Shown: positions 78 to 7,525, numbered from the stretch's first letter. The stretch is DNA of 64,000 nucleotides from an uncultured Pelagibacteraceae bacterium (GCA_902629285.1 CACOQN010000007.1:8180-72179), one strand, 5' to 3'. Notes: generated from the sequence alone by a model not told the origin. Translations and numbers: made by a program.

Positions 78-350
78 CTAAATATCAAATTTTTCAGATC
101 TCAATAAACGCAGCTTTGTCTTAATTCCACCTCTCCCTGAGTATCCACCAAGGCCTCCATCGGACCGAATTACTCTATGACATGGTATTTTGGGGGCATA
201 AGGGTTTTTTCCACATGCATTAGCTACAGCACGCGCTGATTTAGGGCTTTCTAAAGCTATTGCTATCTGTTTATAGGTTTTAACAGTGCCTTTTGGTATA
301 GTTTTAAGGTAATTCCAGACTTTTAATTGAAATTTAGTACCTTTCATCAA
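78..350 (-). CDS. ogt: O6-methylguanine-DNA methyltransferase, minimal C-terminal-domain form
   Basis: IPCHRVI active-site motif; TYKQIA...SARAVANAC HTH. Confidence 0.92.
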   Translation of the reverse strand: MMKGTKFQLKVWNYLKTIPKGTVKTYKQIAIALESPKSARAVANACGKNPYAPKIPCHRVIRSDGGLGGYSGRGGIKTKLRLLRSEKFDI

Positions 351-550: not shown

Positions 551-614
551 AATGCCATTAATTGTCCTTTAAATTAATAAATTATTTTATTTGACATTAT
601 AAAATACTTGATAT

Positions 615-649
615 ATTACTAACGATAATTAATTGTTATCAATAGTAAT
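615..649. other. Imperfect inverted repeat (14-7-14), candidate recombinase target/operator
   Basis: ATTACTAACGATAA-TTAATTG-TTATCAATAGTAAT; 12/14 arm positions complementary; ends 3 nt before recombinase ATG. Confidence 0.6.
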
Positions 650-652
650 TAT

Positions 653-1606
653 ATGACTAACTTAACCACAGACCTTAGATCGCTTAATGAAGCAACTTTA
701 AATAACCTAAAGAGCTCTAAAGCAAACAATACTTTAAGAGCTTACAAATCAGATTTTAAGGATTTCGGAGCTTTTTGCGTCAAACATGGTTTAAATTCCT
801 TACCCTCAGAGCCTAAAATTGTTTCATTGTACCTAACTCATCTTTCTAAAAATTTGAAAGTAAGCACTTTAAGAAGAAGGTTAGTTTCAATAAGTATGGT
901 TCATAAGTTAAAAGGCCATTATTTAGATACAAAACATCCTATTATTCTTGAAAATTTAATGGGAATAAAAAGGGTAAAAGGAAGTGTTCAAAAAGGTAAA
1001 AAACCTATATTAATCAGTCATTTAAAATCAATAATTAATGTAATTGATGAGAAAACAATAAATGAAATTAAAAATTCAAGAGACAAAACACTAATCTTAA
1101 TAGGCTTTGGTGGTGGTTTTAGAAGAACCGAACTAATTTCAATTAACTATGAGGATTTAGAGTTTGTACCTGAGGGACTCAAAATCACTATCAGAAGATC
1201 AAAAACAGATCAATTTGGTGAAGGAATGATAAAAGGACTACCCTACTTCACTAATGAAAAATATTGCCCAGTAGTAAATCTAAAAAAATGGTTAGATGTT
1301 TCTAAAATTAATTCAGGTCCTATTTTTAGAAGCTTTACAAAAGGTTTATCTTTAACTGAAAAAAGATTAACAGACCAATCTGTAGTTTTGTTAATAAAAG
1401 AATATTTAAATTTGGCAGGAATAGAAAATAAAAATTTTGCTGGTCATAGCTTACGATCAGGTTTTGCTACTGTTGCAGCAGAAGCTGGCGCAGACGAAAG
1501 AAGTATAATGGCTATGACAGGACATAAAACAACACAAATGGTTAGAAGATATATAAAAGAAGCAAATTTATTTAAGAACAATGCTTTAAACAAAGTTAAA
1601 ATTTAA
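653..1606 (+). CDS. Tyrosine recombinase, Cre-like/phage integrase family
   Basis: GFRRTEL (R), RRSKTDQ (K), GHSLRSG (HxxR), TGH...VRRY (H, Y); N-terminal SAM-like core-binding domain. Confidence 0.93.
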   Translation: MTNLTTDLRSLNEATLNNLKSSKANNTLRAYKSDFKDFGAFCVKHGLNSLPSEPKIVSLYLTHLSKNLKVSTLRRRLVSISMVHKLKGHYLDTKHPIILENLMGIKRVKGSVQKGKKPILISHLKSIINVIDEKTINEIKNSRDKTLILIGFGGGFRRTELISINYEDLEFVPEGLKITIRRSKTDQFGEGMIKGLPYFTNEKYCPVVNLKKWLDVSKINSGPIFRSFTKGLSLTEKRLTDQSVVLLIKEYLNLAGIENKNFAGHSLRSGFATVAAEAGADERSIMAMTGHKTTQMVRRYIKEANLFKNNALNKVKI

Positions 1607-2502
1607 TTATCAAAATAAACTATATCATTTAATTGTCCAATTTTAGGAATAATGAATTTTTTTATAAAATTAAAATTAAACTTATCAATGACATAAACCT
1701 CTCCATCATAATATCGAGAATGTCTTAATTTTCTTTTGCCAATACCACTTTTGCCAATAAAAATATACTCAGAATTTGAAGTTATACCTCTTGTCCAGGA
1801 TTTAATGTCAATAATAAATTTTTTTTTATTATAACTATAAATTTTTCCCAAATTAGAGGATGAAATTAAATAATCATCATTATATTTTTCCAAATCATGA
1901 GTATGAAATACATTATATAGATTTTCTATAATACCAGCTTCCAATCCATCAATGGTTTTATTCTGATATAAAGCCTGAATTGGAATTTTGATAATCTGAG
2001 CATTTTGAAATAAATTTTTTTTGTGACCATTATTCAAACCAATGAAAAGAAAATTATCGTCAATATTGATTGCATTAATATGATTTTTATCATCACGGAT
2101 TTTGCCAATTTCTATAAAAAATTCAATTGAATTGTTTTCTAGATTTAAAACCTGAATTCTATTTTTACCAGTTTCCGTAATAAAAATAAAGTTTTTATAA
2201 GAAGCAATTTGATGAACATCATAAAGATTATTAATAATTATTTTATTCTTAGTGACACCATTTAAAAAGTCATAAATATGAATTATAACATCCGTAGACT
2301 TTTCGTAGTTGCTATTTATTAAATTTTCTCTTGATGCAAAAATAATATTACTATTATTAGAACAGCTTAAACAGGTTCCAAAAAAACCTTTGCTGGGAAA
2401 TTTAAAAATACCTTTATGCCAATTACCTATTATTTTTGAAATTCTATCATTTTTAAGATTATATTGATAAACGCCCCTACTTGAAGTAATGAATAAATTC
2501 AT
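1603..2502 (-). CDS. Hypothetical beta-propeller protein (DUF4915/TIGR03032-like)
   Basis: Repeated short beta strands; HINAI, HTHDL and WTRGIT motifs. Confidence 0.6.
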   Translation of the reverse strand: MNLFITSSRGVYQYNLKNDRISKIIGNWHKGIFKFPSKGFFGTCLSCSNNSNIIFASRENLINSNYEKSTDVIIHIYDFLNGVTKNKIIINNLYDVHQIASYKNFIFITETGKNRIQVLNLENNSIEFFIEIGKIRDDKNHINAINIDDNFLFIGLNNGHKKNLFQNAQIIKIPIQALYQNKTIDGLEAGIIENLYNVFHTHDLEKYNDDYLISSSNLGKIYSYNKKKFIIDIKSWTRGITSNSEYIFIGKSGIGKRKLRHSRYYDGEVYVIDKFNFNFIKKFIIPKIGQLNDIVYFDN

Positions 2503-2535
2503 TTAGTTAATTTAATATATATTTAGTTAAGAATT

Positions 2536-3525
2536 ATGAATATGCATAATATACATAAAACAGCTCTAATTGGTACAGGATATTGGGGTTCTATAATTGC
2601 TAAAACTTTAACGAAAATTACTAAAAAAAAAATTATAGTGTTTGACAAAAATAAACAAAATTCAAATTTATTAAAAAAAAAATTTAAACAAATAGTAGCT
2701 GCTAAAAATATTAATGAAATATTACTAAACAAAAGTATAGAAAATATAATATTGGCAACACATCCTAGTATTAATTTTAAACTTGGAAAAGAAGTACTAA
2801 AAAAAAAGAAAAACCTATTTGTTGAAAAACCTATAGTAACGAATCAAAATAAATTATTAAAATTAATTAAATTGTCTGAAAAAAATAATAAAATTTTTAT
2901 GGGAGGATATATATATTTATATAATTCTTTTATTCGGAAAATAAAAACAATACTAAATAAAAAACAACTTGGGCAAATAAAATTTATTGAAATTCAAAGA
3001 AAAAATTTAGGTCCAATAAGAAACGAAATAGACTCTCATCTTGATTTAGGATCACATGATATAAGTATATTAAAATATTTTTTCAAAAAAAAAGTAGTTG
3101 TTAAAAATATTGTTAAACGAAACATATTAAAAAAAAATATATCTGATATTAGTTCTATTAATTTAAAAATAGGTCAAATAAATTGCGAAATTATTTCTAG
3201 CTGGCTAAATCCAACAAAAGAAAGAAAAATTCTGATCATCGGTTCAAAAAAAATGTTAGTTTTTGATGAAATGGAAAAAACTAACAAACTTAAAATTTTT
3301 AATAAATATGCATTTTACCCACCATTAACTAAATTTAAAAAAGATTATACATCAAATAGTGCCAGAATATATTTAGGAAAAACGAAAAAAATCAAAGTTA
3401 AAGAAAATGATACTTTAAGAAATGAATTAATTCATTTTGAAAAAAAGTGTTTTAAGAATCAGGAACCATTAACTAATGGTAGATTTTGTTTAGATGTACT
3501 TAAAACTATTAATTACAAAAGTTAA
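2536..3525 (+). CDS. Gfo/Idh/MocA NAD-dependent oxidoreductase, WbpB/WlbA-like sugar C3-dehydrogenase
   Basis: GTGYWG Rossmann motif, VEKP, DLGSHD. Confidence 0.85.
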   Translation: MNMHNIHKTALIGTGYWGSIIAKTLTKITKKKIIVFDKNKQNSNLLKKKFKQIVAAKNINEILLNKSIENIILATHPSINFKLGKEVLKKKKNLFVEKPIVTNQNKLLKLIKLSEKNNKIFMGGYIYLYNSFIRKIKTILNKKQLGQIKFIEIQRKNLGPIRNEIDSHLDLGSHDISILKYFFKKKVVVKNIVKRNILKKNISDISSINLKIGQINCEIISSWLNPTKERKILIIGSKKMLVFDEMEKTNKLKIFNKYAFYPPLTKFKKDYTSNSARIYLGKTKKIKVKENDTLRNELIHFEKKCFKNQEPLTNGRFCLDVLKTINYKS

Positions 3526-3611
3526 TTAATATTATTATAGAGTCAATTAAAATAATAAATAAAAGGAACTGTATCAAATTTTTTTAACAATATTTATGAT
3601 TATTTAAATTT

Positions 3612-4697
3612 CTAAAATGAATTTAAAACTTTAACAACTTTTTTTACTTCCGATTTTTTTAAAACCGGGTCAATTGGCAGACTTAAACATCTAGATGCAA
3701 TATACTCAGAATTAACAAATTTTTTATTTTTAAATAATTTACTAAAGCATTTAAGCTTATTAATTGGATTAGGATAATGTATTCCATATTGTATTTGATT
3801 TTTTTCCAAATGTTTTATTAAACTTTTTCTATTTTTTACTAAAACAACATATTGATGATAAACAGCATTTTTACTGTATTTAATGATATTTATTTTATTA
3901 TTTTTAATATTTTTTTTATAAAAATTTGCAATATTTTTTCTTTTTAAATTAAATTTCTTTAATGATTTTAATTTTAGATTTAACAAAGATGCTTGAATAC
4001 TGTCTAATCTACTATTGACACCTATTTCATCATGAATATTTTTTCTTTTTTGACCAAGATTTCTTAACTTTATTATTTTTTGGTAAAATTTGTTTTTGTT
4101 TGTAGTAATCATTCCTCCATCCCCATAACAACCAAGATTTTTTCCTGGATAAAAACTGTAGCAGGATAAGTCGCTATGTTTGCCAATATTATTTCCAAAA
4201 TTATCTTTACCCCCGTGTGCCTGAGCTGAATCCTCAATAATAAAAATTTTTTTATTTTTGATAATATTTTTAATCTCTTTAATATTAACAACTCCACCAT
4301 ATAAATTAACTGGCAAAATAACTTTTGTTTTTGAACTTAAATTTTTTTTAATTTCACTTAATGAAATCAAACAATCATCTTTATTAACATCAACCAAAAT
4401 AGGCTTTAAATTATTATTCACAATGGCTAATACTGTGGAAACCCAAGTCATAGCAGGAACTATTACTTCGGAATTTTTTGGTAAATTAAGAACCTTAAGG
4501 GCCAAATACAATGCATCGGTTCCATTGGCACATCCAACAGCAAATTTCGACTTTGTAAAATTTGAAAAATTAATTTCAAAATTCTTAACACTTTGACCTA
4601 AAATAAAATCACTTTTTTTGAAATGTTTTCGAAGCAATCCAATAAAAGTATTATGTAAATGTTTATCCTGTTTGTTAATGTCATAAAATTTAATCAT
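3612..4697 (-). CDS. DegT/DnrJ/EryC1/StrS PLP aminotransferase (WbpE/FdtB-like)
   Basis: EDSAQAHG, SFYPGKNLGCYGDGG (PLP Lys), GVNSRLD; ATG at 4697 preferred to TTG at 4703. Confidence 0.92.
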   Translation of the reverse strand: MIKFYDINKQDKHLHNTFIGLLRKHFKKSDFILGQSVKNFEINFSNFTKSKFAVGCANGTDALYLALKVLNLPKNSEVIVPAMTWVSTVLAIVNNNLKPILVDVNKDDCLISLSEIKKNLSSKTKVILPVNLYGGVVNIKEIKNIIKNKKIFIIEDSAQAHGGKDNFGNNIGKHSDLSCYSFYPGKNLGCYGDGGMITTNKNKFYQKIIKLRNLGQKRKNIHDEIGVNSRLDSIQASLLNLKLKSLKKFNLKRKNIANFYKKNIKNNKINIIKYSKNAVYHQYVVLVKNRKSLIKHLEKNQIQYGIHYPNPINKLKCFSKLFKNKKFVNSEYIASRCLSLPIDPVLKKSEVKKVVKVLNSF

Positions 4698-5448
4698 AAA
4701 CAATTTTTATATTATTTTTCACATACCTTATATCAGATATTTTTTTATTATTAAGAAAAGGTAATTGCATTGGAGGAAAAATAAATGCTTTAATCTGATT
4801 AAAATGTTTATCAGTAATTTTTTTTAATCTAAAATATTTCATTTTTTGATAATTCACCGATGATCTAGAAAAATAAGATCCTTTTTTTAATTTTTGTTTT
4901 TTAATTTTATATTTTTTATTTAAAATATTCTTAAAATTTTTTTTAAGTAGTTTAAGTGAATAAAACATTAAATTGTGGTAATTTTTAAAAGCATTAGTAT
5001 TTCTCCCAATTTTAAATTTTGTTGACGCGATTATGGGTCCTGTATCAATACCTTTATCTATTTTATGTAAAGTAATACCTGAAATTTTCTCTCCATAAAA
5101 AATTTGTAAAAAGTTGGTATGACATCCTCGATATTTGGGTAGTAAACTAAAATGAAAATTGAATAACTCTTTAGATAAAAATTTTTTTATATCTATTATT
5201 AAATCATATTCAATTGAAATGAATATTAAATTTTTTATCTTATAAAGTTCATTTATACTAACTATTCTATATCTATGTTTTTTTGCATATTTCCTTAATG
5301 AAGGCTGCCATGTGTCGGCCCCTTTATCTCTTTTACTTGGTAAGACTAAAATATTTTTTTTACTTACTTTTGATGAAATAAATTTTAGAAAGTCTATCGA
5401 ACATTTGTTCATCCCTGCTACGCATATAATATTATTTTGACCAAACAT
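4690..5448 (-). CDS. Sugar N-formyltransferase (10-formyl-THF dependent)
   Basis: NFHFSLLPKYRG and IDTGPII give the N/H/D catalytic triad; ATG at 5448 overlaps the GT stop (track start 5472 is an alternative). Confidence 0.85.
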   Translation of the reverse strand: MFGQNNIICVAGMNKCSIDFLKFISSKVSKKNILVLPSKRDKGADTWQPSLRKYAKKHRYRIVSINELYKIKNLIFISIEYDLIIDIKKFLSKELFNFHFSLLPKYRGCHTNFLQIFYGEKISGITLHKIDKGIDTGPIIASTKFKIGRNTNAFKNYHNLMFYSLKLLKKNFKNILNKKYKIKKQKLKKGSYFSRSSVNYQKMKYFRLKKITDKHFNQIKAFIFPPMQLPFLNNKKISDIRYVKNNIKIVYD

Positions 5449-7525
5449 ATTTAAAATTTTTTTTTGTGTCAAAAATTTTGTTTATTATAAAATCAGCAAT
5501 AATATTATTTTGAAAATAATTAAAATAACTTTTTTTACTTCTTATAGATCTTATTCTTAACTCTTTAGGTTTGTTGATTATTCTAATTAATTTATCAATC
5601 AAGTCTTCATGTCTCTCATAAATTATAATTTCATCATTATCAAAAAAATCCTGATATTTAACTTTTGAATGAATTAAAGTTAATACACCGTTACCCATTA
5701 ATGACGCTATCCTATTACTAGAAGCGTATTTATTGGGACCTCCCCTACTTAGATTGAGTGCCGTTTTAGATGTCATTAGCTCATTTGAATAAGCATAATT
5801 CCATTTAGGTTCTTCATTATATAATCCTAAAATATTAAAATTAATTTGATTATTTGACTGTAATATTAATTTATCAATAAAATTATATCTTTCATCAATT
5901 GTATTTTTTTTCAATTTTCCATAATTTACACCATGACTCAGTGCAAAAAATAAATCTTTATCCTTTTTTACATTATAAAATTTTCCATTTTCAATATTTG
6001 GATCAACTGGAATTGGTAAAAAATTGATTTTATTTTTCTTAATTTTAGTTTTAATTATATCTGGTGCTGTTGTGATAAAATAATGATCAATCAAATCATT
6101 ATTTTTTTCTATTAAATCTAGATTTTTTCTATAACTAGGATCTCCTTTCATTACATGATCTTCATACCATAAAGCAATTTTAACTCTAAATTTTTCTTTT
6201 AAAATTAACATTGTACTTCTTGATAAAGAATTGTTGTGACCAAATAATATTAAATCAGGTCTATAATTTTTTGTTATTGAAATAATTTTTTTATCTAAAG
6301 AATTATTTAAAAATAAACCTTCATTATGGTTTCTATAATCAAAATCAATTACGTCATGACCGTTACGAATAAAGCCATTTGAAATTTTTTTAGCTATAGA
6401 TAGGTTAAATAAACGATGATTATTTTTAATTCCAAAATTAGAAATATGCAAAATTTTAAAAGTTTTGTTAACCGCTGAAATTAATATTTTTTTTCTTATT
6501 CTTAATTTATCTAATGCATTAACACTTTCGTACGGCTTATGAATAACATTATTAAAATTTTTTTTTTGAATTTTGTTAAGTAAACTCTTATTTTCTATTA
6601 AATTTGAAATAGCATTAATTAATTCTTTCTTATTGTTGTTTTTCAATACATAGTTGTTTTCAAATGTTTCAGATAATCCTCCACTTTTTGATGTGATAAC
6701 AGCACATCCCCTAGAAGCACTTTCTAAAGCAGTACGACCAAAAGGTTCATCCCATGTAGGATTTACTACTGATATTGAAGATTTTTCATAAACTTTGAGT
6801 AAATCTTTATGGCTTATCCAATTATTTATTTTTAATCTTGAATGTGAAAAATTAAAACTTTCTCTTTGCTCATTTCCATAAACCAAAGCTTCCCATTTAG
6901 TATATTTTTTTAAAATTTTAATTATTGCACTTCCAAAAATTCCAAAACCTTTGCTTTTGTTTAATTTACCTGAAAAAACAATAATATTTTTTTTTTTAGG
7001 AAATTTATTAATTGTATTTATGAAGTTATAAATTACTTGAACATTGTTTTTATGACTAAAACTTAAATTTAAGAAAAATCTTTTTTTAACCCAATTACTT
7101 ACAAATATAATTTTATTGCAATTTTCTAATAAAAACTTTTTATAATCTGGTTTGTTACTATATCTTATTGTATTAGGGTCATTATGAAAAATTAAATTAA
7201 TTTTAAGATGAGGATTGTTTTTAATTAAATAATATGCGTATTCAGGTCGATTATGAATTTCAACGATTGAAATATTTCTTTTTTTAATTTCATAATCAAT
7301 ATTTTTAATATACTGCAAGTTTGTATAAAATTTACTTTTTACACTTATTGGTATAACGTTTTTATTAAGATATTTATAATAATTAGGAAGTTTTTTGCAA
7401 AAAATAAAATCTATATTTTTTTTAGTGTTTTTTAAATAGTAATCCACCCATATTGAAACTGCTCCAAAATCTTTATCAGAAAAACTTTCTTTTAGAGGAA
7501 GAATAATCGCTGATTTATTACTCAT
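5432..7525 (-). CDS. Two-module glycosyltransferase: N-terminal GT4 plus C-terminal CgeB-like GT-B
   Basis: EPFGRTALE GT4 motif; second module with ALNLSR...SNRIASLMGNG; 697 aa. Confidence 0.85.
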   Translation of the reverse strand: MSNKSAIILPLKESFSDKDFGAVSIWVDYYLKNTKKNIDFIFCKKLPNYYKYLNKNVIPISVKSKFYTNLQYIKNIDYEIKKRNISIVEIHNRPEYAYYLIKNNPHLKINLIFHNDPNTIRYSNKPDYKKFLLENCNKIIFVSNWVKKRFFLNLSFSHKNNVQVIYNFINTINKFPKKKNIIVFSGKLNKSKGFGIFGSAIIKILKKYTKWEALVYGNEQRESFNFSHSRLKINNWISHKDLLKVYEKSSISVVNPTWDEPFGRTALESASRGCAVITSKSGGLSETFENNYVLKNNNKKELINAISNLIENKSLLNKIQKKNFNNVIHKPYESVNALDKLRIRKKILISAVNKTFKILHISNFGIKNNHRLFNLSIAKKISNGFIRNGHDVIDFDYRNHNEGLFLNNSLDKKIISITKNYRPDLILFGHNNSLSRSTMLILKEKFRVKIALWYEDHVMKGDPSYRKNLDLIEKNNDLIDHYFITTAPDIIKTKIKKNKINFLPIPVDPNIENGKFYNVKKDKDLFFALSHGVNYGKLKKNTIDERYNFIDKLILQSNNQINFNILGLYNEEPKWNYAYSNELMTSKTALNLSRGGPNKYASSNRIASLMGNGVLTLIHSKVKYQDFFDNDEIIIYERHEDLIDKLIRIINKPKELRIRSIRSKKSYFNYFQNNIIADFIINKIFDTKKNFKYVWSK

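What the first reader, a model, noticed from the sequence alone, without database searches (positions are those of the whole stretch)
615..1606. Cre-like recombinase with an adjacent dif-like site: candidate single-recombinase chromosome dimer resolution system
Seen: a 14-7-14 inverted repeat (12/14 matches) ends 3 nt before the ATG of an intact tyrosine recombinase. Its inner core is ATAA-N7-TTAT. It lies just downstream of a TTGACA hexamer (591-596), and the gene has no SD. About 75% of genes in the window point toward this end. Established: the E. coli dif core is ATAA-N6-TTAT; streptococcal XerS and epsilonproteobacterial XerH act as single recombinases on a site next to or near their own gene; lambda-type cores have 7-bp overlaps. 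Inference: this may be an undescribed one-protein Xer-like module near the terminus, autoregulated by binding over its own promoter, or a resolvase domesticated from a mobile element.
Basis: partly seen in the sequence, partly recalled or inferred. Interest (0 to 1): 0.85.

Follow-up and report, generated by a model that had tools for sequence, protein, structure and literature searches.

The report
Cre/lox-like dimer resolution in SAR11
Pelagibacter (SAR11) and its whole family lack the usual XerC/XerD-dif machinery for unlinking chromosome dimers; at the replication terminus they carry one Cre-like recombinase next to its own conserved 35-bp lox-like site, apparently recruited from plasmids.

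Summary
The 14-7-14 inverted repeat (615-649) ends 3 nt before the ATG of an intact 317-aa tyrosine recombinase. On its own the repeat is not significant: five such repeats occur in the window.

Five results make it significant.
- **Conservation:** 47 of 47 orthologous loci from six genera keep GATAA-N7-TTATC at a fixed distance from a TTGACA -35 box and just before the start codon. The site has one copy per genome.
- **Only recombinase:** this gene is the only tyrosine recombinase in the window's genome and in most genomes of its family. The sister family has a typical XerC plus XerD pair.
- **Terminus:** in 10 genomes or contigs from four genera the site lies 1-11 kb from the GC-skew maximum. 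In a complete genome it lies 49.9% of the way round from the skew minimum.
- **Supporting genes:** FtsK with a gamma domain is present, and RecA is present in complete relatives.
- **Relatives:** the fold and profile are closest to Cre. Homologues at 32-45% identity sit on over 2,400 plasmids and carry a lox-like site (CTAACTTCCGATAA-N7-TTATCGGAAGTTAG) next to their genes.

Best reading: a plasmid-derived Cre/lox-type module that replaced XerCD/dif for chromosome dimer resolution in Pelagibacteraceae. No recombination was shown. The held literature says Pelagibacter has no dif/Xer system.

The parts
591..596 (+). -35 hexamer TTGACA of the recombinase promoter
   Evidence: TTGACA or TTGACT is present in 47/47 orthologous upstream regions, always 32-34 nt before the GATAA of the site.
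614..619 (+). -10-like hexamer TATTAC, 17 nt after the -35, overlapping the outer left arm
   Evidence: The hexamer 17 nt after the -35 is TATTAC, TATATT or TATTAT in 35 of 47 loci. It is below the tool's consensus threshold in this window. The promoter assignment is inferred.
615..628 (.). Left arm of the dif/lox-like site (ATTACTAACGATAA), a presumed recombinase binding site
   Evidence: The inner GATAA is present at all 47 loci. The outer positions switch together with those of the right arm between site classes A and B.
629..635 (.). Asymmetric 7-bp central region TTAATTG, the presumed strand-exchange region
   Evidence: TTAATTG or TTAATGG in 42 of 47 loci; the rest differ by a single base. 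It is asymmetric, as needed to give the site a direction.
636..649 (.). Right arm of the site (TTATCAATAGTAAT)
   Evidence: 12/14 positions are complementary to the left arm. The A.A mismatch at arm position 8 is conserved in class A.
653..1606 (+). Gene of the 317-aa Cre-like tyrosine recombinase, the sole tyrosine recombinase of the genome
   Evidence: PF00589 scores 67.6 bits and Phage_int_SAM_1 23.7 bits. It is the only PF00589 hit in the genome. R157, K184, H265, R268, H291 and Y300 are invariant in 18 diverse orthologues and align to Cre R173, K201, H289, R292, W315 and Y324. The fold is closest to Cre.

Best explanation
This is the chromosome dimer resolution module of Pelagibacteraceae. 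It consists of one Cre-family tyrosine recombinase and its 35-bp target site (14-bp arms, 7-bp asymmetric centre) at the replication terminus, and it functionally replaces XerC/XerD-dif.

**Proposed mechanism (inferred by homology with Cre, XerS and XerH).** When RecA-dependent crossing-over joins the two sister chromosomes into a dimer, the dimer carries two directly repeated copies of the site. Two recombinase monomers bind each site. Four monomers synapse the two sites. Tyr300 cleaves at the edges of the central region, and two sequential strand exchanges through a Holliday junction yield two monomers. FtsK, which is present with a gamma domain, most likely brings the two sites together at the septum. 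It may or may not activate catalysis.

**Autoregulation (inferred).** The site lies over the -10/+1 region of the gene's own conserved promoter. Binding should therefore also repress transcription and keep the recombinase level low.

**Origin (inferred).** The module descends from a widespread plasmid and phage family of Cre-like recombinases that carry a lox-like site next to their own gene.

**Shown here:** the anatomy, conservation, single-copy status, terminus position, absence of XerCD and dif, and the homologies.
**Not shown:** binding, cleavage, dimer resolution, autoregulation and any dependence on FtsK.
For: 1. **Site conservation.** GATAA-N7-TTATC lies directly before the start codon in 47/47 orthologous loci from six genera with 52-89% protein identity. 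The -35 box is at a fixed 32-34 nt, while sequence further upstream differs.
2. **Copy number.** The 17-bp core occurs in 354 of 401 family genomes, nearly always as one perfect copy. The reversed-pattern control is near zero. The window's genome holds only one copy.
3. **Arms change together.** Two site classes exist, and both arms switch in concert. Class A is ATTACTAAYGATAA / TTATCAATAGTAAT. Class B is TTTCCGATAA / TTATCGGAAA. The class matches a 12-aa segment of the protein: present in 22/22 class A loci and absent in 25/25 class B loci (one of the class B loci was classified from the sequence).
4. **Sole tyrosine recombinase.** The window's genome has one PF00589 hit. Six-frame phmmer with sister-family XerC and XerD finds only this ORF, both in the window's genome and in a complete relative. 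Most genomes of the family have exactly one hit, whereas sister-family genomes always have two, of XerD type (316-330 bits) and XerC type (315 bits). Every genus of the family has one orthologue per genome.
5. **Terminus position.** In complete genome G013 the site is at 617,601-617,635. The cumulative G-C maximum is at 615,774, the T-A minimum at 620,847 and the G-C minimum (origin side) at 1,290,841. The site is therefore 669,979 bp, or 49.9%, from the minimum. The distance from site to G-C maximum is 0.9-2.4 kb in G000, G008, G024, G041, G052 and G200. It is 10-11 kb in G004, G005 and G012.
6. **No canonical dif.** The best matches to E. coli dif have at least 7/28 mismatches and lie away from the terminus.
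7. **Supporting genes.** FtsK with a gamma domain is present at 100.7 bits. RecA is present in 6/6 complete relatives.
8. **Cre homology.** Foldseek ranks Cre first (E 2e-13, TM 0.70), ahead of XerH (3e-9), XerA and XerD. hhalign to P1 Cre gives 96.6% probability over 260 columns.
9. **Outgroup modules.** Twelve of 17 outgroup loci carry CGATAA-N7-TTATCG with CTAAC(T/C)TC outer arms next to the gene's 5' end. These loci include plasmids of Alicyclobacillus, Protochlamydia and Hymenobacter, a Sporomusa phage-like region, a ParA/primase plasmid-like contig and sporadic alphaproteobacteria. Their arms share 10/13 bases with the loxP arm, which 0.06% of random 14-mers from the window reach.
10. 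**Experimental precedent.** Cre/loxP put in place of dif resolves E. coli chromosome dimers and needs FtsK C-terminal activity (PMC2965235). Legionellales, also once listed as lacking dif/Xer, turned out to have a single-recombinase XerL/dif system (PMC9765430).
Against: - **No direct evidence.** Nothing here shows binding, cleavage or recombination.
- **No element using the site.** Extra core matches carry one mismatch and look like chance. The one checked (G404) lies inside an nrdR-like coding frame.
- **No KOPS-like word.** No strongly skewed word was found in the complete genome, so FtsK guidance is unsupported.
- **Few independent events.** The link between site class and protein insert may rest on only one or two evolutionary events.
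- **Skew offset.** In three contigs the skew maximum is 10-11 kb from the site. At single-gene scale the skew apex mostly reflects the point where gene orientation converges.
- **Conflicting annotation.** A 2026 preprint on Arctic Pelagibacterales speaks of 'XerC and XerD' from automatic annotation. I could not check their genomes; my census suggests this is a naming effect.
- **recA gap.** recA was not found in the window's own 94%-complete assembly.
Confidence: 0.78

Rival explanations
1. Regulatory element only. The palindrome is just an operator, or a 5'-UTR RNA hairpin, that controls the recombinase gene. The enzyme's real recombination target, if any, lies elsewhere.
For: The site overlaps the conserved promoter. 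As RNA the region folds to -10.5 kcal/mol, z = -3.2. Arms that change together would also preserve a hairpin.
Against: - With the conserved -35 and -10 boxes, transcription should start inside the left arm, so the full hairpin would not be transcribed.
- The 7-nt 'loop' and the inner arms are nearly invariant across 52-89% protein identity, which is not expected of a mere stem.
- Homologues in other phyla keep the same DNA arm sequence with free-varying spacers, as lox-type sites do.
- No other copy or related site exists in the genome to serve as a target.
- The exact terminus position is left unexplained.
Confidence: 0.08
2. Integrase of a mobile element or of the adjacent flexible gene cassette. 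The gene and site are the remains, or the active integration module, of an island that happens to sit near the terminus.
For: The family is mostly plasmid- or phage-borne. A slot with 0-4 variable ORFs lies right after the gene. Databases name the gene 'integrase'.
Against: - It is a single-copy core gene in every genus of the family, with a conserved left neighbour (MGMT) within the genus and a conserved right anchor.
- Genomes with an empty slot keep both gene and site.
- The variable slot is on the far side of the gene from the site.
- No second (attL/attR-type) site is present: no other 35-mer with up to 8 mismatches in the window's genome, or up to 7 in G013.
- It is the only tyrosine recombinase in genomes that lack XerCD.
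Confidence: 0.06
3. Another terminus-linked role. For example, the enzyme could be a DNA invertase or a driver of rearrangements around the terminus, or a protein-DNA complex that marks or blocks the terminus without resolving dimers.
For: Blocks of genes lie on opposite sides of the site in different genomes, a symmetric inversion across the terminus.
Against: Inversion by a tyrosine recombinase needs two inverted sites, and only one exists per genome. Symmetric inversions around the terminus are common in bacteria without any site-specific system (general knowledge). The full catalytic set is conserved, which a pure roadblock would not need.
Confidence: 0.03

Closest known systems
Cre/loxP of phage P1, including the engineered Cre/loxP inserted in place of dif in E. 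coli
   Same: - Best structural match (Foldseek E 2e-13, TM 0.70) and profile match over both domains (hhalign 96.6%).
- A single recombinase acts on an inverted-repeat site that lies upstream of its own gene. In P1, loxP is at 35-68 and cre at 485-1516 of X03453.1.
- Arms of the wider family share 10/13 bases with the loxP arm.
- The natural role of Cre includes plasmid dimer resolution (general knowledge).
- loxP in place of dif resolves chromosome dimers with help from FtsK (PMC2965235).
   Different: - Only about 18-22% identical to Cre.
- H291 stands in place of Cre W315.
- The layout is 14-7-14 (35 bp), not 13-8-13.
- The site overlaps the promoter and lies 3 nt from the ATG, rather than about 400 nt upstream.
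- It is chromosomal, vertically inherited and positioned at the terminus.
XerS/difSL of streptococci and lactococci
   Same: One recombinase replaces XerCD. The site lies directly upstream of the recombinase gene at the terminus. FtsK is present.
   Different: - The XerS model scores 43.7 bits against a cut-off of 267.
- XerS has 356 aa.
- difSL is 31 bp, with a different centre and unlike arms.
- The left-arm resemblance (TTTCCGAAAA against TTTCCGATAA) may be chance.
XerH/difH of Helicobacter and Campylobacter
   Same: A single recombinase, a palindromic site that can lie near the gene, and a terminus location. It is the second-best group of structural matches (E 3e-9).
   Different: Sequence match to XerH is marginal (E 2.7e-3). 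XerH is longer (about 360 aa) and its site is different.
XerL/dif of Legionellales
   Same: A lineage listed in 2009 as lacking dif/Xer that in fact uses a divergent single recombinase at a terminus site with varying flanking genes (PMC9765430).
   Different: - XerL is larger, with its catalytic Tyr at 387-389.
- Its site is not described as adjacent to the gene.
- It was found through a mobile element that uses the site, whereas none was found here.
- Homology to XerL was not tested.
XerC/XerD-dif (canonical; present in the sister family of the same order)
   Same: The same presumed task, the same terminus position, and inner arms of ATAA/TTAT as in E. coli dif.
   Different: - One protein instead of two.
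- XerD and XerC models score 69 and 54 bits against cut-offs of about 330.
- The centre is 7 bp rather than 6.
- The arms are 14 bp and nearly symmetric.

Membership tests
Tyrosine recombinase superfamily (Pfam PF00589) | The domain scores above the Pfam cut-off. | tested here: met
   67.6 bits against a cut-off of 27.1. The N-terminal SAM-like domain scores 23.7 against 22.3.
Tyrosine recombinase superfamily (Pfam PF00589) | The catalytic residues R-K-H-R-(H/W)-Y are conserved. | tested here: met
   R157, K184, H265, R268, H291 and Y300 are invariant in 18 orthologues. They align to Cre R173, K201, H289, R292, W315 and Y324.
XerC / XerD (NCBIfam TIGR02224 / TIGR02225 equivalogs) | The whole-protein score reaches the curated cut-off. 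| tested here: not met
   XerD 69.3 against 329.6, and XerC 54.3 against 335.15. Sister-family proteins score 315-330 bits on the same models.
XerS (NF003462) and archaeal XerA (NF040815) | The whole-protein score reaches the curated cut-off. | tested here: not met
   XerS 43.7 against 267, and XerA 64.9 against 220.
Cre-like recombinases (fold and profile level) | Closest solved structures and full-length profile homology to P1 Cre. | tested here: met
   Foldseek ranks 1-30 are all Cre or its engineered variant Tre, with a best E of 2e-13 and TM 0.70. hhalign gives 96.6% probability over 260 columns at 22% identity. The model has pLDDT 81.3 and pTM 0.60.
Cre-like recombinases (fold and profile level) | A lox-type target: two inverted arms of 13-14 bp round a short asymmetric spacer, recombined by the protein alone. 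| tested here: inconclusive
   The 14-7-14 architecture is present. Outgroup arms share 10/13 bases with the loxP arm, but the window's own arms share only 8/13. Recombination cannot be tested with these tools.
dif-type chromosome dimer resolution site (criteria of Carnoy and Roten 2009, PMC2731167) | The site lies in non-coding DNA. | tested here: met
   It lies between the upstream ORF and the ATG at 653. The same holds in 47 loci.
dif-type chromosome dimer resolution site (criteria of Carnoy and Roten 2009, PMC2731167) | [quoted passage not shown] | tested here: met
   It lies 0.9-2.4 kb from the skew maximum in 7 genomes or contigs and 10-11 kb in 3, across four genera. In G013 it is 49.9% of the genome from the skew minimum.
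dif-type chromosome dimer resolution site (criteria of Carnoy and Roten 2009, PMC2731167) | Palindromic structure, and one copy per chromosome. | tested here: met
   12/14 positions pair in the window, and the arms are perfectly paired in class B. Most of 401 genomes hold one perfect core copy.
dif-type chromosome dimer resolution site (criteria of Carnoy and Roten 2009, PMC2731167) | Sequence homology to known dif, with a conserved XerD-binding arm. | tested here: not met
   Only the inner ATAA/TTAT is shared. The best genome matches to E. coli dif have at least 7/28 mismatches and lie elsewhere.
Single-recombinase dimer resolution systems (XerS, XerH, XerA, XerL as a functional class) | No second Xer-type recombinase is present in the genome. 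| tested here: met
Single-recombinase dimer resolution systems (XerS, XerH, XerA, XerL as a functional class) | The recombinase is necessary and sufficient for recombination at the site, and its loss gives a filamentation or growth defect. | not testable with these tools
   This needs plasmid resolution assays and complementation of an E. coli dif/xer-deficient laboratory strain.
Single-recombinase dimer resolution systems (XerS, XerH, XerA, XerL as a functional class) | Coupling to FtsK, through KOPS-guided translocation and/or activation. | tested here: inconclusive
   FtsK with a gamma domain is present. No strongly polar 7- or 8-mer was found in the complete genome.

The most novel reading that the evidence does not exclude
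At the root of Pelagibacteraceae, XerC, XerD and dif were lost and replaced by a plasmid-type Cre/lox module installed at the terminus. This would be a natural counterpart of the engineered 'loxP in place of dif' E. coli strains. The recombinase may be constitutively active like Cre. It would then be held in check only by autorepression through its own site, and FtsK would merely align the two sites rather than activate catalysis. The gene and its site are passed on, and occasionally exchanged between genera, as one unit. Two specificity classes (A and B) may not cross-react.
Probability: 0.55. Interest if true: 0.8.

Novelty: new variant of a known kind. Interest (0 to 1): 0.72.

Why it matters
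SAR11 is the most abundant bacterial group in the sea and a model of genome streamlining with very high homologous recombination. [quoted passage not shown] That leaves open how it copes with chromosome dimers.

A one-gene, one-site Cre-type solution would close that gap. It would add a fifth, phylogenetically separate type of single-recombinase dimer resolution, after XerS, XerH, XerA and XerL. It would also show that a plasmid dimer-resolution module can take over the chromosomal task.

On the practical side it gives:
- a precise terminus marker for SAR11 genomes and metagenome-assembled genomes;
- a large family of Cre-like recombinases with predicted cognate sites (two specificity classes in SAR11, many spacers on plasmids) that could serve as orthogonal recombination tools.

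Tried and rejected
- **KOPS-like words.** I ranked 7- and 8-mers of complete genome G013 by leading-strand bias, using the site as terminus. Nothing approached KOPS-type polarity; the best observed fractions were 0.6-0.76.
- **Canonical dif.** Searches with E. coli dif and with an ATAA-N6-XerD-arm pattern gave only chance-level hits scattered over the genome.
- **Mobile elements using the site.** Among 401 genomes, second core matches nearly all carry one mismatch and recur as the same unrelated sequences. The G404 pair, 19 kb apart, has its second copy inside an nrdR-like coding frame. The two perfect copies in G300 are the same locus at two contig ends.
- **RNA hairpin reading.** The fold is better than shuffled sequence. 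I rejected it as the main function because the predicted transcription start lies inside the left arm, and because the DNA sequence of the arms is conserved across phyla.
- **Promoter scan.** The consensus tool did not list the TTGACA promoter, because the -10 TATTAC ends in C. The promoter rests on conservation alone.
- **Independent coevolution events.** The tree allows one or two switches of site class, so the perfect class-to-insert correlation is weak as statistics.

Full report
**What is there.**
Window 615-649 reads ATTACTAACGATAA-TTAATTG-TTATCAATAGTAAT, a 14-7-14 inverted repeat with 12/14 complementary positions. It ends 3 nt before the ATG (653) of a 317-aa ORF (653-1606). TTGACA lies at 591-596, and no Shine-Dalgarno sequence precedes the start. 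To the right of the gene, 42 of 56 ORFs of at least 100 aa point towards this end of the window. The repeat alone is not remarkable: in this 29% G+C sequence, five 14-7-14 repeats with at least 12/14 matches occur in 64 kb.

**The protein.**
It has a Phage_integrase catalytic domain (67.6 bits) and a weak SAM-like N-terminal domain. It scores far below the curated cut-offs of all named Xer families:
- XerD 69 bits against 330;
- XerC 54 against 335;
- XerA 65 against 220;
- XerS 44 against 267.

In 18 orthologues down to 53% identity, R157, K184, H265, R268, H291 and Y300 are invariant. They align to Cre R173, K201, H289, R292, W315 and Y324. An AlphaFold model (pLDDT 81) matches Cre structures first (E 2e-13, TM 0.70). 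XerH (3e-9), IntI4, XerA and XerD (4e-7) follow. hhalign of the orthologue profile against P1 Cre gives 96.6% probability over 260 columns. 'Cre-like' is therefore a fair label at the level of fold and profile, although identity to Cre is only about 20%.

**It is the only tyrosine recombinase.**
The window's genome (94% complete) has one PF00589 match, and it is this gene. A six-frame phmmer search with the sister family's XerC and XerD finds only this ORF, both in the window's genome and in a complete relative.

Across 111 genomes of the order, those of the window's family mostly have exactly one match. Extra matches are longer integrases present in some genomes only. All seven sister-family genomes have two strong matches, and these score as XerD type (316-330 bits) and XerC type (315 bits).

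In 251 genomes of the order, nine of the ten genera sampled, including six genera of the window's family, have a match. In those six genera it is one orthologue per genome at E of 1e-98 or better. The few genomes without a match are mostly fragmented assemblies. Public names for the protein are 'integrase' or 'site-specific integrase' of Candidatus Pelagibacter.

**The site is conserved with the gene.**
Forty-seven orthologous loci all have GATAA-N7-TTATC 4-19 nt before the start codon. All have TTGACA or TTGACT 32-34 nt before the GATAA, while sequence further upstream differs.

The centre is TTAATTG or TTAATGG in 42 of 47 loci. The 17-bp core occurs in 354 of 401 family genomes, nearly always as one perfect copy, and the reversed control pattern hardly ever occurs.

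There are two site classes:
- Class A: ATTACTAAYGATAA ... TTATCAATAGTAAT.
- Class B: TTTCCGATAA ... TTATCGGAAA.

Both arms change together, as expected for a palindromic protein-binding site. The class matches perfectly with a 12-aa segment of the protein (residues 226-237 here). It is present in 22/22 class A loci and absent in 25/25 class B loci. That segment aligns to the Cre stretch around residues 240-256. The gene tree needs only one or two class switches, so this counts as consistency rather than statistical proof. The tree also places some genomes of other genera inside the class A clade. This suggests that gene and site are occasionally exchanged as a unit.

**Position.**
In the complete 1,343,202-bp genome G013:
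- the site is at 617,601-617,635;
- the cumulative G-C maximum is at 615,774, with a plateau from 615,014 to 618,962;
- the T-A minimum is at 620,847;
- the G-C minimum is at 1,290,841.

The site is therefore 49.9% of the way round from the presumed origin.

The skew apex lies 0.9-2.4 kb from the site in the window's own contig, in G008 and G024, and in complete genomes of three other genera (G041, G052, G200). It lies 10-11 kb away in G004, G005 and G012.

Gene order confirms the picture. Genes converge at the 3' end of the recombinase gene, and blocks of genes swap sides across the site between genomes, as in symmetric inversions around a terminus.

No canonical dif exists. FtsK with a gamma domain is present. 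RecA is present in six of six complete relatives, though it was not found in the window's incomplete assembly.

**Where it came from.**
A profile search finds 3,948 clusters at E of 1e-30 or better. The nearest ones outside SAR11 score 250-315 bits and are called 'site-specific integrase' in unrelated bacteria. More than 2,400 plasmid records hold a homologue, the best at 38-45% identity. Other contexts include a phage-like region in Sporomusa, a plasmid-like contig with ParA and a primase, and a BREX island.

Among 298 other alphaproteobacterial genomes, only 10 scattered ones have a homologue.

Twelve of 17 outgroup loci carry CGATAA-N7-TTATCG with outer CTAAC(T/C)TC arms next to the 5' end of the gene, with a different spacer in each. 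Two examples are CTAACTTCCGATAA-CCTTTCA-TTATCGGAAGTTAG and, in a marine alphaproteobacterial metagenome bin, ATTACTTCCGATAA-CATACAA-TTATCGGAAGTAAT.

These arms share 10 of 13 bases with the loxP arm ATAACTTCGTATA, which 0.06% of random 14-mers from the window reach. In P1 too, loxP lies upstream of cre.

The SAR11 module is thus a vertically inherited, terminus-fixed member of a mobile Cre/lox-like family.

**Interpretation.**
The simplest account is that Pelagibacteraceae resolve chromosome dimers with this one recombinase at this one site. The steps of binding, synapsis, cleavage by Tyr300 and Holliday-junction exchange are inferred from homology. Autorepression is inferred from the overlap of the site with the conserved -10/+1 region. 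A role for FtsK is inferred from its presence and from two experimental precedents. Cre/loxP in place of dif resolves E. coli dimers only with FtsK C-terminal activity (PMC2965235). XerS/difSL also needs a septum-borne FtsK (same paper).

**Rivals.**
- **Operator or RNA hairpin only.** This does not explain the terminus position or the cross-phylum conservation of the DNA arms.
- **Island or mobile-element integrase.** This is contradicted by core, single-copy inheritance, by the lack of any second site, and by genomes with an empty neighbouring slot that keep the module.
- **Invertase.** This needs two sites, and only one exists per genome.

**Novelty.**
In the searched library nothing describes this system. 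[quoted passage not shown] The same paper listed Legionellales as lacking one, and that group was later shown to use XerL/dif. A 2026 preprint mentions 'XerC and XerD' in Arctic Pelagibacterales from automatic annotation. My census suggests this is a naming effect, but I could not check those genomes. I rate the finding a new variant of a known kind: single-recombinase dimer resolution, here with a Cre-family enzyme and a lox-like site.

**Limits.**
- Nothing here shows recombination.
- No KOPS-like word was found.
- No element exploiting the site was found.

Noticed in passing
window 1603-5472: Four genes fill a slot between the 3' end of the recombinase gene and a conserved 697-aa glycosyltransferase gene (5432-7525). 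The first is DUF4915-like by Pfam. In other genomes the slot holds 0-4 different ORFs, so a small flexible sugar-modification cassette sits exactly at the terminus.
   Followed up: partly
flanks of the site in G000, G013, G008, G005, G004, G024, G012: Two gene blocks (clusters c14-c28 and c17-c27) lie on opposite sides of the site, in opposite orientation, in different genomes of the genus. This is a symmetric inversion across the terminus.
   Followed up: no
whole genome G000: recA (PF00154) was not found in the window's own 94%-complete assembly. It is present in six of six complete relatives, so an assembly gap is the likely reason.
   Followed up: partly
window 78-350 (-): A 90-aa methylated-DNA-protein-cysteine methyltransferase DNA-binding domain protein (PF01035, 110 bits) is the conserved left neighbour of the site within the genus and in one other genus. 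It is short for an Ogt and may lack the N-terminal domain.
   Followed up: no
L193/L194 (Pusillimonas-type metagenome contigs): A 317-aa homologue lies head to head with a BREX operon (BrxA, BrxB, BrxC and a methyltransferase), with only a weak site-like repeat about 110 nt upstream. It may be a recombinase tied to a defence island.
   Followed up: no
L197 (Alicyclobacillus plasmid pAACI01): Here the lox-like site (GATGTCCGATAA-GTGATTG-TTATCGGACATC) lies 880 nt upstream of the recombinase gene, with an AbrB/PIN toxin-antitoxin pair in between. This may be a combined plasmid-stability operon.
   Followed up: no
recombinase residues 301-317 (window 1553-1603): The tail after the catalytic Tyr (IKEANLFKNNALNKIK) is almost invariant across the family, more so than most of the protein. 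It could be the helix exchanged between subunits, as in Cre, or a partner-binding tail.
   Followed up: no
gene tree of 47 orthologues: Recombinases of some genomes from genera g5 and g8 nest inside the class A clade of genus g1. The gene tree therefore disagrees with the genus assignment, which hints at replacement of the gene-plus-site unit by homologous recombination between genera.
   Followed up: partly
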